Part shown: positions 9,001 to 51,000 of the stretch, in pieces
How positions within the stretch are numbered: the stretch's first letter is position 1
Layout of the letters: each line of letters begins with the position of its first letter
Source: Octopus vulgaris
Lineage: Eukaryota
Direction of reading: 5' to 3'
NCBI GenBank assembly: GCA_951406725.2
Contig: OX597818.1
Coordinates: forward strand, 91,822,001 to 91,886,000
Length of the DNA stretch: 64,000 bases
Program-made: the position numbers

Positions 9001-12000
9001 GAGAAATTACACCCAACGGCCAGTGGTTCACGTTATAATAATAGTAGTGATGAATAAAGATACAGTAAGTAAAATAAAATATATTCTTGACTTACTGAAA
9101 TTACTTTCGCTTACAGTGATGCTTGTTGAATAGCTAGATGGCAATTGGGAACAGCATCAAAAGAGATGGAGAGATTATTTCTGAAATCAAAAATTCTTTC
9201 AAGATTGAATTACAATCTATCAAAAAACGTAGTGTAACTGTCTGAGAACAAGGGCACAATTTAGCACGTGTCTCTACGTTAATATTCGCCATCAGTACAG
9301 CATGTCCATATATATATCGATAGATAGATAGGTAGATAGATAGATAGATAGATAGATAGATAGATAGATAGATAGATAGATAGATAGATAGATAGATAGA
9401 TAGATAGATAGATAGAATTTTCTAGTCATTTGACTGCAACCATGCTGGAGCATCGCCTTAGAAAGGGGTTTTTATTCGAAGAAATCGACCCCAGAACTTA
9501 TTCTTTGTATGCTTAGTACTTATTCTATTAGATTATTTTGCTGAACCGCTAAGTTACAGGAAGAAGAAACACCATTATTGGTTGTCAAGTGATGATGGGG
9601 AGATAAACACGTACACAATCACACACGCACACACACATAGTTATGTACATATATATACCTGACAGGCTTCTTTTAGATTTTGTCTACCAAAGCCACTGAC
9701 ATGGTTTTGGTTGGCCCGAGGTCATAGTGGAAGTCACTCGCCCAGATTGCCACGCAGTGGGACTGAACTGGGAACCATGTAGTTGAGAAGCTTCTTACTA
9801 CACGCTTATACATATATTAAACATGTACACGAGAGCGGTGTGCGTGTGTATCTGTGTGTATGTCTGTGAGTGTAAGTGTGAGTGAGTTTGTGTGCGTGTG
9901 TGTGAGTGTGTGAGTGTGTGTGTGTGTGAGTGAGTGTCTGTGCCTGCATGTATGTGTGTGGAAGAATGGATGAAAAGAATATATCAAACTTTTACATACT
10001 GTTTCTCATGTTGTCCCATTCTGAGTATTCGATCCTGCGGTCATTGTACTGGACACCAGCAGCTGCGAACAGCATACGGCAGATCTCAGCACGGCCACGG
10101 TGGTTGAAGTAGTGGAGAGTGTAGGAAGGCATGATTGATTTTGGTCGTTGGTATTTAGATACTGGTTTAAGAATTGGTTATGTTCAAAGCTAATAGCTTA
10201 TCTATGGTTTTGCTTGAAGACTGGACGCTGGTCTCGCTTCAGAGCCGAGCTTATATAGGGTGGAATACTCAACAGAAACACATTAACGGCCATAATCACA
10301 CACTATTAGAACCTCCGCCTACACAACGATATACCTTGATACCCTTTCTTATTGTTTGAGCGGCGGCGAAGATGGCAATGGAAATGGTGATGGTGGTAGA
10401 GGGGATAATAATGGTAGCGATAGTGTAGGTGATGATGGGGGTGATGGTCGTGATTGTGAGTGGCTGGTAGTGGCGGCAGTGATGATGGTGGTAATTGTGA
10501 TAGTGGTGGTGGAGATGGAATCAATAGCTCTGGTGTTAGTGGCGATGGTTTCCGGCCATTCTGGTGCAGATAGTGTCTGGTGTTTGTGGCAGCAGTGGTG
10601 GAGATGGTGGTGGTGGCGGCGGTGGTGGTAGTGGTGGTGATGGTGATGGTGGTGGTGGTGGTGAGTGTGGGCGAGTGTGATACCGGGGTGCTACTGAAAG
10701 GATAGCATGTATGTGGGTACGGTGGTGCCCCTCTTACTGATAATCATAGTATAGGTTCTTATACTTGAGATATTAATGATGGATGTTGTGGTAATGATAG
10801 TGTAGTTATTGGAATGCTATATGCGTGAGTGGGAGCGGTTTTGATGGTGGTGGTGGTGGTGATTATGATGATGCTTGATTATATATGTATGTGAGTATAC
10901 GTATCTATTTGTGTGTGCATGTGCGTATGCGATTGTGTGTACGTATGTATGTGCGTACGTATGGCTGTTTCTGCTTGTAGCGTTGATTGTAATGGTGTTG
11001 ATGGTAGTGGTGAGTTCAAATGCTTCACTAGTGATAATAAGGACGGATGACATTATTCTTGTTGTTGGCGGTGGAGGTGGTGGTGGTGATGGTGGTGGTG
11101 GTGGTGGTGGTACTAGTAGTGACAGCAGTGATAGTGCTGCAAGTGTAGTCGTAGTGGAGGAGTTTTTTTTTATTGAAGGTTTTAGAGAAAGTGGGATCCT
11201 TGATTTACAAGAATAATAATTTTCTTTCAGTATCCCTGTTATTTTGAAAGACAGAAAGAAATAAAGACAGACAGAAAGAAAAAGAGAAATAGAGAAAGTG
11301 AGAGTGGGAGAAAGGGGAGGGAGAGAGAAAACGAGAGATAAACACAGACAAATTGTATGTTTCTTCTGAATTACATGGAATTAATCATGCACGCACATAC
11401 ATACATACACACATACATTCTCACACACATACACGCACACACATGTACATGTGTGAATATATATACATATATGTGTGTGTATGTATATATATATATATAT
11501 GTGTGTGTGTGTGTGTGTGTGTGTGTATATATATCTGTGTGTATATATACACACACACACATATATATATGTATACATATATATATATATATATATATAT
11601 GTATGTGTGTATGTATATATATATATATATATATATATATGTAGATACATGCATACATTCATATATATATATATATATATATATATATCCTAGGATGGAT
11701 ATCTAGGAGTCGCTAATCGTTTCCTGATCCTTAATGGGTATGTTTGTGTGTATACGAGTGAAACAAACAAACACCCACATACATACGTATACGTCTATGT
11801 GTGTGTGTGTGTATATATATATATATATATATATATATATATATTTCTAAACCACTCTCCATACTCTATTTTCGTTCTTTCTTTTTATCTTCTCTCTCTC
11901 TGTCTCTCTCTCTCTTTCTTTCTCTCACTTTCTCTCATTCTCTCTCTTACTCTCATTCTTTCTGTCTCTGTCTCTCTCTTACTCTCTCTCTTACTCTCTC

Positions 12001-48000: not shown

Positions 48001-51000
48001 TGCTTCGTACCCTTTTATTTTAAATTCACACCCATCAATGTTAAGTTCGACTTAACAATTCTGAGATTTATAAAATAGGTACCAATATTATATATATACA
48101 CACACACCAATGATATATCAGTGAACAGCACGGCGAGCTGGCAGAATCGTTAGCACGCCGGGAAAAATGCTTAGCGACATTATTGGTTTCTGGATTCAAT
48201 TACCGCTGGGATCCTTGCGTTTCATTCTTCGGGTCGATAAGATAAGTACCATTAGGACACTAGGATCAATGTAATGGAGTCAGCGCCTTCCCCGAAATTT
48301 CTTGACTTGTGCCAAAATTTGAAACCAATATTGTAAATATACTGCGCAGGCGTGGCTGTGTGATAAGAAGCTTGCTTCCCAGACACATTGCTCCAAGTTC
48401 CGTTCCACTGTGTGGCACATTGGGCAATTTTCTTCTAAAATCACGAGTCGACCAAAGCTTTGTGAGTGGATATGATAGAGGGGGAAATGATAGAAGCCCG
48501 TTGTATGTGTGTGTGTGTTCTGTGTTTATCTCCCTACGATCACCGCTTGACAACTGGTTTGGTGATTTTACGTTCCTGTGACTTAGTGATTCAGCCTATA
48601 GATGGAACCAATAGAATAAATACCGGGCTTTAAAAATAAGTTGTGGGGTCGATGCCTGCGACGAAAAATTTAAAACAGTGCCCAAGCATGGCCGCAGTCA
48701 AATGACTAAAACAAAGTAAAAAATATAAAAGATACCAATAACATTAATGAACAAGGCAGGGAGATGGTAGAATAGTTAGTACGCTGAGCGAAATACCTAG
48801 CGTCATTTCGTCCGTCTTTACGCCCTGAGATTCAACAGTCACTGGGGTCGATTTGCCTTTCGGCTTTTGAGGTCGATAAAATAAGTACAATTTGAGCGCT
48901 GAGGTCGATGTAATCGATTTAGCAATTCCTTCAACATTGCTGGTCATGCGCCAAAATCTGAAACTAATATTATATAAAAAATACACTAGGATTAATATGG
49001 CCAAGCTAAAATTTCATGTTTATAATATTCAAATGCTTCATATTTTTAAAAGGTTTCCATGGAAAAAGCAGCATGGAGATGGCCAGAGTTGACTTCATCT
49101 CGCACTGTTTCTATGACATCATGGATGACTACATGAGGATGTACCAGGACAGAGAAGGAAGAATGAGGGTGAGGAATTTCAAACTTTTTAATGCCTAAAT
49201 TAAAAGCCGATGGTTGCAGTGGTTATCGATGTCATTTCTATGTATTGGTGATTTTAAGTCAACGTTGAGTAAAGGTAGAGTTTGCCTGTGCATGTGCTAG
49301 AGTTTACAATTAGTGGAAACATGGTGGATAATATCAAGTAAAAGAAAGGACAGCATTGCGTTTCGTCCTTCAGAAGGTATATAATCGACTATATATATAT
49401 ATATATATATATATATATATATATATATATATATATATATACATATATACACACACATGTATATATGCACACACACACACACATACACGCACAGAAAGGG
49501 GGGGCGAAAGAGATGGAAAAAAGAGTATTACACATATAGATGTATATTGTACGTGTACATGTATGTGTGTCCGTGCGTATATATGTATTTATGTATGTAT
49601 ACTATGCAGACTTCGAATATATGCGTATGTAAGGAGAATAACAGCTTAGTGTGCGAAAAGCCCAAGTGGATAGACGATATACAAACAAACACACACACAC
49701 AAACGCCATTTTAAAATGAGACTGAAACTGCAAAATACAATAATACAACAAAGTATTCTGCAATTGTGAGCAAACCTTTATTTTAGGCCTAATACAGGAT
49801 AATCTTGTGTAGCTTTACAGGTGTATTTAATCAAGCCTGTACAAGATTACGCACTACTTGCTGATTATAAAACAAGTAGAGTTACCTGCAAATGCTGTTC
49901 GAGCTTTGTATACTTCAGCAGCCAGTAACATTCACAAGGATGCATTAAATTGTGGCTATAATAGGTATATACTGTCACCATGTCGTACAATGAGTTTCTA
50001 CTGAGACGTTATGATTGCTATATAGGGACACAGATCTTTGTATTTTCTCATTTATATACACTGTGTTATGCGCGTGATGATGTAATGTTTCCTTTCTCTT
50101 AACAAAACCAAACCATTAACTAGACCAATTGTGTTCTCATACGTATATTCGAAGCACATATTCATTAATGCGTGGATATATGCATGCGTGTGTTCATATA
50201 TCGATTTACTCCTCGCTTTAGGGAGGACAGCAATTTCGAAAATCATTGTTCAAGTTGAAATCGTTTAAAACTTGGGAGATATAGCATAGAAACTAAATAA
50301 GAAAATTATTTATTGAAATGCAGTGCACGTGTATTCAGATATACATAGGAGCACTCCATCGGTTGCGACGACGAGGGTCCCAGCTGATACGATCAACGGA
50401 ACAGCTTACTCGTGAAATAAACGTGCAAGTGGCTGAGCACTCCACAAACACGTGTACCCTTAACGTAGTTCTCGGGGAGATGCAGCGTGACATAGAGAGT
50501 GACAAGGCTGGGCCTTTGAAATACAGGTACTACTCATTTTTGCCAGCTGAGTAGACTGGAGCAACGTGAAATAAAGTGTCTTGCTCAAGGACACAACGCG
50601 CCGCCGGGAATTGAACTCACGACCTTACGATCATAAACCGAATGCCCCTAACCACTAAACAACGTGCCTTCACTCAGATATACATACACCCATGCATACT
50701 GATAAGTGGGTACTGCCATTATATTGGGTTTTATTGTTCTCTCCAAAATAGTAGAGCATTTTCTATTGTTTTCACAATGTTACTCCGTACATATGGTGTG
50801 TACGCAAAAATTATTCCAAATCCATCGATTATACAAGCTCTGATTCTCTCTTGTTGTTCTTCATATGTTCTAGTAGCGTCTTTGTTTATGTTAAACTAAT
50901 TTACAGTTTCTGTTGAAATTGATTTAATCGATTAATGGTAATTTTCAAAGAAATCAATTATTTTATATTTAAATACCTTCTTATAAAACATAAGAAGATG

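What the first reader, a model, noticed from the sequence alone, without database searches (positions are those of the whole stretch)
10000..49168. Exon-specific homogenisation between the two S-crystallin paralogs
Seen: counting by hand only codons that encode the same amino acid, synonymous differences between genes A and B are 3/39 in exon 1 and 5/28 in exon 3, versus 11/24 in exon 2, 15/27 in exon 5 and 17/34 in exon 6. Exon 1 is 123/133 nt identical, yet the adjacent 5' UTR and intron share no obvious similarity. Inference: old paralogs whose individual exons are being homogenised by gene conversion (helped by the inverted arrangement or other cluster members, possibly via cDNA), or exons under nucleotide-level constraint (RNA structure, exonic regulatory element, unmethylated CpG-rich 5' end). 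Exon-wise conversion would be a way to shuffle modules in the lens crystallin family.
Basis: partly seen in the sequence, partly recalled or inferred. Interest (0 to 1): 0.72.

Follow-up and report, generated by a model that had tools for sequence, protein, structure and literature searches.

The report
Frozen first exon in octopus crystallins
Two anciently separated octopus lens-crystallin genes lying head to head have kept the first coding exon almost letter-for-letter alike, silent positions included, while the rest of the genes has drifted to saturation; the cause (selection on the DNA/RNA letters themselves, or copying between genes) cannot be settled from this window alone.

Summary
The window holds two intact six-exon S-crystallin (sigma-GST-derived) genes head to head: A on the minus strand (10132..288) and B on the plus strand (42707..54420). 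The finding's coordinates span only A exon 1 to B exon 3.

- **Exon 1:** it stands far apart from the other exons. NG86 pS is 0.15 against 0.84-0.92 in exons 2, 4, 5 and 6. Fourfold sites differ at 1/16 against 18/29. After correcting for codon composition, 3 silent differences are seen against 12.9 expected (0 of 20000 permutations).
- **Exon 3:** the signal is only marginal after that correction (5 against 8.9, P=0.04).
- **Borders:** identity collapses within about 10 nt of both borders of coding exon 1.
- **Age:** protein trees place the A/B split before the Octopus-Argonauta split. Two of the ten exon-1 differences (K28, N40/D40) are lineage marks shared with Argonauta relatives. This argues against a recent whole-exon replacement.
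- **Other explanations:** RNA structure, CpG island, low regional mutation rate, a cDNA route and chance all found no support.

Two readings remain. One is purifying selection on the exon-1 nucleotides, which I slightly prefer at about 0.45. The other is recurrent short-tract gene conversion with selection keeping the marks, at about 0.35. No other octopod DNA was available, so the decisive ortholog dS test could not be run.

The parts
10000..10132 (-). Gene A, coding exon 1 (133 nt, ATG at 10132..10130; donor GT at 9999..9998)
   Evidence: 123/133 identical to B exon 1
5216..5311 (-). Gene A exon 2 (96 nt)
   Evidence: 69/96 identical to B
3375..3490 (-). Gene A exon 3 (116 nt); an internal AG at 3420..3419 matches the shorter O. 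vulgaris model P0006
   Evidence: 97/116 identical to B
2425..2454 (-). Gene A exon 4 (30 nt, FQRSRDFGCS)
   Evidence: AG...GT scan; 100% to P0006
1673..1780 (-). Gene A exon 5 (108 nt)
288..452 (-). Gene A exon 6 coding part (162 nt) plus stop TAA 290..288
10251..10257 (-). TATATAA about 120 nt upstream of A's ATG (candidate TATA box; read from the sequence, not tested)
   Evidence: the only upstream match to B found (TATATAA.CTC)
42657..42663 (+). ATAAATA about 45-50 nt upstream of B's ATG (candidate TATA box; read from the sequence, not tested)
42707..42839 (+). Gene B, coding exon 1 (133 nt; donor GT at 42840)
47601..47696 (+). Gene B exon 2
49053..49168 (+). Gene B exon 3
51592..51621 (+). 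Gene B exon 4
52074..52181 (+). Gene B exon 5
54256..54420 (+). Gene B exon 6 coding part plus stop TAA
   Evidence: all six exon translations equal P0001 (assert)

Best explanation
Exon 1 is kept nearly constant by purifying selection on its nucleotide sequence, on top of selection on the protein. In other words it is a synonymous-constraint element covering the first 133 coding bases.

A and B separated before Octopus and Argonauta did. Their exons 2, 4, 5 and 6 have run to silent-site saturation. Exon 1 has accumulated only ten changes, evenly spread, and about as many of them change a residue as are silent.

The element starts at the ATG and ends at the splice donor, so it acts on or through the coding part of the first exon. 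The likeliest forms are a promoter-proximal DNA element or a 5' mRNA element (protein binding, initiation or early elongation) that these very highly expressed lens genes need.

Shown:
- a roughly fourfold or greater deficit of silent change, confined to exon 1;
- sharp borders on both sides;
- old lineage marks lying inside the near-identical stretch.

Inferred: that selection rather than copying is the cause, and what the element does. A stable RNA fold is not the mechanism.
For: 1. **Site-specific identity.** Silent-site identity in exon 1 goes beyond codon preference. Both genes use the same minority codons at the same places (GCA23, AAT30, CGC32, AGG33, TCA37, AGA43). There are 3 silent differences against 12.9 expected (0/20000).

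2. **Age of the split.** In the tree built without exon 1, B + O. bimaculoides B + Argonauta P0038 form a clade at 100/99. A sits in a different 13-row clade (91/94) that itself holds Octopus, Argonauta and Enteroctopus members.

3. **Two old differences inside the exon.**
   - K28 is present in all 3 B-lineage rows including Argonauta, and Q28 is present in all rows of A's clade.
   - N40 is present in all 3 B-lineage rows, and D40 is present in A and in P0018, P0021, P0022 and P0012 (Octopus and Argonauta).
   - These are nt 82 and 118 of 133, with 25-nt identical runs beside them. A whole-exon copy after the genus split would have erased them.

4. **Other lineages keep their own exon-1 residues across genera.**
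   - The '4-like' pair P0032/P0034 is 43/44 identical and carries I6, V17, L22, K28, A40, V41 and E44.
   - G40 marks the S-crystallin-4 trio, T40/G41/C36 mark P0023/P0028/P0039, and Y7/R40 mark P0027/P0040.
   - So exon 1 is not being freely homogenised in this cluster.

5. **dN/dS.** The ratio is 0.34 in exon 1 (6.0 replacement and 4.0 silent changes). In the other exons the silent sites are saturated. That pattern fits a depressed silent rate.

6. **Poor substrate for recombination.** The only homology available for pairing is a 133-nt island whose longest perfect run is 25 nt. It lies between unalignable UTR and intron. That this is a poor substrate rests on established knowledge of homology requirements, recalled and not tested here.

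7. **Clock comparison.** At the published octopod rate of 2.4e-9 per site per year (PMC7656900, passages), exon-1 dS of 0.17 would date to about 36 My (CI 9-98). That is younger than the marks allow.
Against: - **No positive sign of a function was found.** Exon-1 RNA folds no better than shuffles (z +0.76, +1.67). It is not consistently less folded than synonymous permutations (fractions 0.28, 0.69, 0.13 for A and 0.11, 0.024, 0.32 for B). There is no Rfam family at gathering score. The promoters and 5' UTRs share nothing beyond a TATA-like word.
- **B's Argonauta ortholog P0038** has exon 1 as its most diverged exon (14/44 residues against 5/31, 11/38, 2/10, 6/36 and 7/54). So the constraint is not universal.
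- **Cross-genus ortholog pairs.** In five such pairs exon 1 is not unusually conserved at protein level (19/220 differences against 8/155 in exon 2 and 17/180 in exon 5), yet it is the least diverged exon between paralogs. This is the direction that conversion predicts.
- **Exon-1 protein tree.** It groups A, B and P0002 (86/89). Holding B with its Argonauta ortholog costs 7.8 lnL (AU p=0.099).
- **Deep-branch share.** Exon 1 has a lower share of its protein tree length in deep branches (0.30, 5-95% 0.18-0.47) than exons 2-6 (0.43, 0.39-0.46). The ranges overlap.
- **The marks could be parallel changes.** Positions 28 and 40 changed several times across the family (9 changes at position 28 on the 39-row tree).
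- **One pair only.** All silent-site evidence comes from a single pair of genes.
Confidence: 0.45

Rival explanations
1. Recurrent non-allelic gene conversion among members of the S-crystallin cluster, confined to exon 1. Strong protein-level selection has kept exon 1 alike enough for pairing, while introns, UTRs and the other exons have escaped. Short tracts homogenise the silent sites. Purifying selection on each gene's own residues (K28, V17 and N40 in B) removes tracts that overwrite them.
For: - **Setting.** The genes sit in a tandem cluster. O. vulgaris S-crystallin models carry accessions CAI9723148 to ...168, with A = ...167 and B = ...168. That accession order equals gene order is inferred.
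- **Precedent.** Concerted evolution limited to coding sequence, with unalignable flanks, is described for old yeast duplicates. Conversion with selected differences retained is described for red/green opsins (PMC3924837, passages of sections 10 and 11).
- **B is under tight protein selection.** It is 214/215 identical between O. sinensis and O. bimaculoides, so retention of its marks by selection is credible.
- **Exon-1 protein tree.** It groups A, B and P0002, all from Octopus (86/89), and the AU test of the ortholog clade gives p=0.099.
- **Divergence pattern.** Exon 1 is the least diverged exon between paralogs but ordinary between orthologs.
- **P0038's diverged exon 1** fits escape from homogenisation.
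- **GC3** is highest in exons 1 and 3 (0.61-0.68), as GC-biased conversion would give. This is weak evidence.
Against: - The old marks at nt 82 and 118 (and possibly 49) would force at least three separate tracts of 33-48 nt or less, or continuous selection on conservative changes.
- Many lineages keep private exon-1 residues across genera, even at the hypervariable positions 36, 40, 41 and 44.
- The homology island is only 133 nt, with perfect runs of 25 nt or less.
- Exon 2, equally conserved as protein across the family (0.86 against 0.87 mean identity), is silent-site saturated.
- No donor is identified, and there is no third copy of exon 1 in the window.
Confidence: 0.35
2. A single, fairly recent replacement of the whole of exon 1 in one gene by the other or by a third member. 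This would be one conversion event, or an unequal crossover in intron 1 that swapped exon 1 with its promoter.
For: Silent divergence is uniformly low across the exon. The ten differences are evenly spaced (nt 7, 8, 33, 49, 75, 82, 108, 118, 131, 132). The apparent age is about 36 My at the published rate.
Against: - K28 and N40 in B are shared with its Argonauta ortholog, and D40/Q28 in A are shared with its own relatives. B's V17, K28, N40 and S44 were already present at the O. bimaculoides split.
- A crossover in intron 1 would leave the 5' UTR, the promoter and the start of the intron alike, and they are not (P=0.59, 0.88).
Confidence: 0.07
3. No special process. The pattern would come from strong codon bias in a highly expressed gene plus a Met-rich, conserved protein segment, or from chance with small counts.
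For: - Two-fold pyrimidine-ending codons are C-ending in 14/15 (A) and 12/15 (B) cases in exon 1.
- For exon 3 this explains most of the signal (5 observed against 8.9 expected, P=0.043).
Against: - For exon 1 the composition-preserving permutation gives 12.9 +/- 2.4 expected against 3 observed (0/20000).
- A shuffle of silent columns among exons gives P=1e-5.
- Fourfold sites differ at 1/16 against 18/29.
Confidence: 0.03
4. A regionally low mutation rate at the 5' end (an unmethylated CpG-island-like promoter region), or an assembly or annotation artefact.
For: Exon 1 is GC-richer (0.50-0.52) than the window (0.35) and keeps 6 shared CpGs.
Against: - CpG o/e is 0.68/0.86 against 0.72 for the window.
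- The UTR and intron directly beside the exon are unalignable.
- The two copies lie in different unique contexts, and the window has no N.
- Independent annotations in three species give the same proteins.
Confidence: 0.02

Closest known systems
Long-term concerted evolution confined to coding sequence in old duplicates (yeast whole-genome-duplication paralogs; review PMC3924837, section 11 passage read)
   Same: Silent divergence is held low in coding sequence while non-coding flanks are beyond alignment. The genes are highly expressed, and strong purifying selection is thought to keep the substrate alike.
   Different: Only one 133-nt exon of six is affected here, separated from the rest by kilobases of unrelated intron. 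Old lineage-specific residues persist inside it, and exon 2, equally conserved as protein, has escaped.
Synonymous constraint elements in coding exons (PMC4014394 and PMC3371700: search listing and abstract starts only; the original 29-mammals survey is recalled, not seen)
   Same: There is a local, sharply bounded drop in synonymous change inside an otherwise normally evolving coding sequence, attributed to an overlapping function.
   Different: Those elements were defined from many orthologs. Here the signal comes from one pair of paralogs, no overlapping function was detected, and cross-species conservation of the silent sites is untested.
Primate red/green opsin genes: conversion with selected differences retained (PMC3924837, section 10 passage)
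   Same: Neighbouring paralogs have homogenised sequence that is interrupted by a few residues kept different.
   Different: In opsins the introns are homogenised and the exons hold the differences. Here the introns share nothing and the exon is the homogenised part.
Cephalopod S-crystallin / sigma-class GST gene family (Octopus S-crystallin 2, 3 and 4; squid SL11 and SL20-1)
   Same: A and B have GST_N and GST_C domains. Both have six coding exons with a short variable exon 4, and they are 70-86% identical to named octopod S-crystallins. They sit in a cluster, as described for octopus chromosome 5 (26-27 genes; PMC9068888 passages).
   Different: Nothing differs as to membership. The exon-1 silent-site anomaly is not mentioned in any paper my searches returned. 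The classic gene-structure papers (Tomarev et al. 1991, 1992, 1995; Chiou et al. 1995; Sweeney et al. 2007) are not held and stayed unread.

Membership tests
S-crystallin (sigma-class GST-derived lens protein) | GST N-terminal thioredoxin-like domain and GST C-terminal domain | tested here: met
   Pfam GST_N, GST_C and GST_C_3 are above the curated cut-offs in P0001 (= B) and P0006 (= A apart from 24 codons of exon 3)..
S-crystallin (sigma-class GST-derived lens protein) | Close sequence relation to proteins named S-crystallin in octopods | tested here: met
   All six B exon translations equal O. sinensis XP_029636684.1. A is 100% identical to O. vulgaris CAI9723167.1 on exons 1, 2, 4, 5 and 6, and 184/213 to O. 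sinensis S-crystallin 3.
S-crystallin (sigma-class GST-derived lens protein) | Six coding exons with a short, variable exon 4 | tested here: met
   Exon lengths are 133/96/116/30/108/162 in both genes. Exon 4 is the least conserved (5/10 residues). The comparison with squid genes is recalled, not checked.
S-crystallin (sigma-class GST-derived lens protein) | Abundant expression in the lens | not testable with these tools
   No expression data are available here.
Non-allelic gene conversion tract | A contiguous segment with silent divergence significantly below the rest of the pair | tested here: met
   Exon 1 against exons 2, 4, 5 and 6 gives Fisher p=1.2e-6. A shuffle of silent columns gives P=1e-5.
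Non-allelic gene conversion tract | The segment's tree conflicts with the rest (clusters by genome, not by ortholog) | tested here: inconclusive
   Protein level only. The exon-1 tree groups A+B+P0002 at 86/89, and an AU test of B with its Argonauta ortholog gives p=0.099. K28 and N40 still tie B to that ortholog. Nucleotide trees were not possible.
Non-allelic gene conversion tract | An identifiable donor and tract ends unrelated to functional borders | tested here: not met
   There is no third exon-1 copy in the window. Both ends coincide with the coding borders of exon 1 to within about 10 nt. This feature is usual rather than obligatory for old paralogs.
Synonymous constraint element | A local synonymous rate well below that of the same gene's other exons | tested here: met
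   pS is 0.15 against 0.84-0.92, and the result survives the codon-composition control. This is a paralog comparison only.
Synonymous constraint element | Silent sites conserved between orthologs of distant species | not testable with these tools
   No octopod DNA other than the window is held.
Synonymous constraint element | A demonstrable overlapping function (RNA structure, known RNA family, antisense frame) | tested here: not met
   Fold z-scores are +0.76 and +1.67. Synonymous permutations show no consistent effect. There is no Rfam hit at gathering score. No antisense ORF of 45 residues or more is shared by both copies. DNA-level regulatory function is not testable here.

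The most novel reading that the evidence does not exclude
The first 133 coding bases of octopus S-crystallin genes carry a second, nucleotide-level code. This would be a promoter-proximal or 5'-mRNA element shared by family members that separated before Octopus and Argonauta did. It has frozen silent sites for well over 100 million years and helps to drive or coordinate the extreme lens expression of the family. 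The near-invariance of the protein's N-terminus would then be partly a by-product of selection on the letters rather than on the protein.
Probability: 0.4. Interest if true: 0.6.

Novelty: new member of a known kind. Interest (0 to 1): 0.4.

Why it matters
S-crystallins are the textbook case of an enzyme recruited and multiplied into a lens protein. How the many copies are kept alike where needed, and expressed together at very high level, is not understood.

An exon whose silent sites are frozen between copies that are otherwise saturated points to one of two things. One is an unrecognised regulatory layer inside the coding sequence. The other is gene conversion working on a homology island of only 133 nt.

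Either would affect how S-crystallin trees, duplication dates and dN/dS scans for positive selection should be built, because exon 1 would have to be treated apart. The public octopod genomes can settle the question in an afternoon.

Tried and rejected
- **RNA structure in exon 1.** Rejected: the z-scores are positive and the two minimum-energy folds differ.
- **Selection for an unfolded 5' end.** Only one of six tests was nominal (0.024), and the results are not consistent.
- **Known RNA families.** Only sub-threshold matches to low-complexity microRNA models turned up, in the TA/CA repeats of intron 1.
- **CpG island or low mutation rate.** Rejected.
- **Homology beyond the exon.** None was found, apart from one 18-nt low-complexity match in intron 1 (P=0.007 in one of seven flank tests) and interspersed repeats shared by introns.
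- **Further exon-1 copies or S-crystallin fragments in the window.** None.
- **Share of deep branches per exon on a fixed tree.** Exon 1 is lower but the ranges overlap, and the topology came from exons 2-6, which biases the test.
- **Y36 shared by A, B and P0002 as evidence of conversion.** Set aside, because position 36 changes 16 times on the 39-row tree and Y or F occurs in outgroup classes.
- **V17 as an old mark.** Uncertain, because the Argonauta ortholog has I17.
- **Biopython dN/dS.** LWL85 and YN00 failed or saturated for most exons, so NG86 and raw counts were used.
- **Literature.** Searches for S-crystallin with 'gene conversion', 'concerted evolution', and 'exon'/'synonymous' returned no paper on this point. 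Sweeney 2007 (PMC2373386) and Chiou 1995 (PMC1135702) are not held, and the Tomarev gene papers are not in the library. A statement there on conserved 5' coding sequence would bear on novelty.

Full report
**What is there.**

The window (64,000 bases, 35% G+C, no N) holds two intact S-crystallin genes head to head, 32.6 kb apart.

I searched the spliced model exon by exon. Only the translation of B's exon 1 went to the large protein search (37 proteins at E<=0.001 among 40 candidates). I left the joined step out. Full-length database proteins returned by that search then served to locate all exons by tblastn and to read the borders.

- Gene A runs on the minus strand from the ATG at 10132 to the stop at 288.
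- Gene B runs on the plus strand from 42707 to 54420.
- Both have coding exons of 133, 96, 116, 30, 108 and 162 nt, with identical intron phases and canonical splice sites.
- Every B exon translates to the matching part of O. sinensis XP_029636684.1 (P0001).
- A equals O. vulgaris CAI9723167.1 (P0006) on exons 1, 2, 4, 5 and 6.
- The O. vulgaris model of B is CAI9723168.1, the next accession.

The finding's coordinates (10000-49168) therefore cover only the stretch from the end of A's exon 1 to the end of B's exon 3.

**The observation.**

The two codons split by introns were dropped.

| Exon | pS (NG86) | pN (NG86) |
|---|---|---|
| 1 | 0.15 | 0.057 |
| 2 | 0.85 | 0.133 |
| 3 | 0.41 | 0.127 |
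| 4 | 0.92 | 0.332 |
| 5 | 0.84 | 0.153 |
| 6 | 0.85 | 0.235 |

Four exons thus sit at or above the ceiling where a distance can no longer be computed. Biopython's NG86 agrees for exon 1 (dS 0.171) and gives 0.53 for exon 3.

- With Met and Trp removed, heterogeneity over six exons gives chi-square p=5e-5.
- Exon 1 against exons 2, 4, 5 and 6 gives p=1.2e-6, and exon 3 against them gives p=0.005.
- Fourfold sites differ at 1/16 in exon 1 and 18/29 elsewhere.

It fails for exon 1. Permuting B's synonymous codons among positions of the same residue within the exon gives 12.9 +/- 2.4 differences against 3 observed (0 of 20000).

For exon 3 the correction removes most of the signal (8.9 expected, 5 observed, P=0.043). 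Exon 6 is slightly short of saturation (21.3 against 17, P=0.014). Exons 2 and 5 are at expectation.

Both genes use the same minority codons at the same places in exon 1, so the identity is site-specific and not a shared preference.

**Borders.**

Identity collapses within about 10 nt of the ATG and of the splice donor.

- The upstream 200 nt and 60 nt are no more alike than shuffles (P=0.59, 0.88).
- The same holds for the introns flanking exon 3 (P=0.99, 0.75).
- The first 60 nt of intron 1 share one 18-nt low-complexity match at different offsets (P=0.007). I leave it unexplained.
- There are only two copies of exon 1 in the window.

**How old the pair is.**

A second search with the database protein P0001 returned 92 relatives among 119 candidates.

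- A tree of 39 named proteins built without the exon-1 columns and rooted on non-cephalopod GSTs gives an octopod clade of 25 rows (100/99).
- Inside it, B, its O. bimaculoides ortholog (214/215 identical) and Argonauta hians P0038 form a clade (100/99).
- A lies in a separate 13-row clade (91/94) that itself contains Octopus-Argonauta-Enteroctopus ortholog sets.

So A and B parted before Octopus and Argonauta did, which fits the saturated silent sites.

At the published octopod rate of 2.4e-9 per site per year (PMC7656900, passages), the exon-1 dS of 0.17 would correspond to about 36 My (CI 9-98).

**Per-exon trees, protein level only.**

- The B+Argonauta clade is recovered from exons 4-6 (100/99), from exons 2+3 (98/97) and from exon 2 (86/87).
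- It is not recovered from exon 3 alone (AU p=0.35).
- It is not recovered from exon 1. There B groups with A and with another Octopus paralog, P0002 (86/89), and forcing the ortholog clade costs 7.8 log-likelihood units (AU p=0.099).

It rests on three or four hypervariable positions and on the unusual exon 1 of P0038, which differs from B at 14/44 residues against 5/31, 11/38, 2/10, 6/36 and 7/54 in the other exons.

**Marks inside exon 1.**

Against a recent overwrite, B's K28 and N40 are shared with its Argonauta ortholog. A's Q28 and D40 are shared with its own Octopus and Argonauta relatives. These are nt 82 and 118 of the exon, flanked by perfect runs of up to 25 nt. B's V17, K28, N40 and S44 were already present at the O. 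bimaculoides split.

Other lineages also keep private exon-1 residues across genera:
- the '4-like' pair P0032/P0034 (43/44 identical, seven private residues);
- G40 in the S-crystallin-4 trio;
- C36/T40/G41 in P0023/P0028/P0039;
- Y7/R40 in P0027/P0040.

Residues 1-33 are identical to A in 10 of 20 full-length octopod proteins. An earlier notebook entry saying 18 of 20 was wrong.

**Evidence that pulls the other way.**

- In five cross-genus ortholog pairs, exon 1 is not especially conserved as protein: 19/220 differences, against 8/155 for exon 2, 19/190 for exon 3, 17/180 for exon 5 and 35/270 for exon 6.
- Yet it is the least diverged exon among paralogs (mean identity 0.87, against 0.86, 0.74, 0.54, 0.78 and 0.73).
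- Its share of tree length in deep branches is lower (0.30 against 0.43) with overlapping ranges, on a topology taken from the other exons.

**Mechanisms tested and not supported.**

- A stable RNA fold (z +0.76 and +1.67).
- Avoidance of folding.
- Known RNA families.
- A CpG island (o/e 0.68/0.86 against 0.72).
- A regional mutation effect (the flanks have diverged).
- A cDNA route (exon 2 is saturated).
- An exon-1 swap by crossover in intron 1 (the promoter and UTR are unlike).

**Verdict.**

Two readings survive.

1. **Purifying selection on the exon-1 nucleotides.** This explains the old marks lying among frozen silent sites, the borders at the coding limits, the raised dN/dS (0.34) and the poor recombination substrate. 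It lacks any demonstrated function, and P0038 is an exception.
2. **Recurrent short-tract conversion, with selection keeping each gene's own residues.** This has good precedent (PMC3924837, passages) and fits the paralog/ortholog contrast. It needs tracts of a few tens of bases or continuous selection on conservative differences.

I put them at about 0.45 and 0.35.

The decisive data are silent-site divergence of exon 1 between orthologs of different genera. They exist in public assemblies but were out of reach here.

**Literature.**

No paper returned by my searches discusses conversion, concerted evolution or silent-site conservation in S-crystallins. PMC9068888 (passages) reports 26-27 S-crystallin/GST genes on octopus chromosome 5, and it invokes conversion only for protocadherins. 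The older gene-structure papers are not held, so the novelty claim is limited to what could be searched.

Noticed in passing
15051-16351 and 27686-28947 (+): Two mariner/Mos1-type transposon remnants lie in the intergenic region. They are 90% identical over 1.3 kb, with roughly 40-nt inverted ends. Pfam finds HTH_48 and Transposase_1. The second copy's reading frame is broken into pieces.
   Followed up: partly
3417-3422 (-), inside gene A exon 3: Gene A reads ATT TTA GAT here, which creates TTTTAG|AT. An in-frame internal acceptor at this point gives exactly the 191-residue O. vulgaris model P0006, which lacks the first 24 codons of exon 3. B has ATC ATG GAT and no such site. It is either real alternative splicing or an annotation slip.
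   Followed up: partly
42707-42763 (+): The O. vulgaris model of gene B (P0096, 196 residues) starts at Met20, although the window has an intact ATG, 19 further codons and a TATA-like word upstream. The O. sinensis and O. bimaculoides models include them.
   Followed up: no
protein P0038 (Argonauta hians), not in the window: B's Argonauta ortholog has exon 1 as its most diverged exon (14/44 residues, 8 of them in the otherwise very stable first 33). B itself is 214/215 identical between two Octopus species. I could not check whether that gene model is sound.
   Followed up: partly
9955-9972 (-) and 42882-42899 (+), intron 1 of A and B: An 18-nt match (16/18, CATCCAT-rich) sits 27 and 42 nt after the donor, just before CA/TA microsatellites in both introns (P=0.007 against shuffles). 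It could be a last trace of homology or a repeat artefact.
   Followed up: no
8459-8805 (A intron 1) and 50353-50699 (B intron 3); also 9420-9803 and 48358-48711: Interspersed repeats are shared between introns of the two genes: 77% over 349 nt in opposite orientation, and 64% over 397 nt in the same orientation. They are not at corresponding places in the two genes, so they are not relics of the duplication.
   Followed up: no
10060-10065 (-) and 42774-42779 (+); codons 14-16 of both exon 1 copies: An E-box word (CAGCTG) and a TGCTGAG word are conserved in both exon-1 copies (read). The resemblance to bHLH and Maf half-sites is recalled, not tested. Words this short are common.
   Followed up: no
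18400-18700, 23446-23620, 38380-38620, 40598-40800: Long simple-sequence tracts (AAT/ATT-type and purine-rich triplet runs) give spurious ORFs of 90-175 residues. TA/CA/TATG microsatellites are very dense throughout the window.
   Followed up: no
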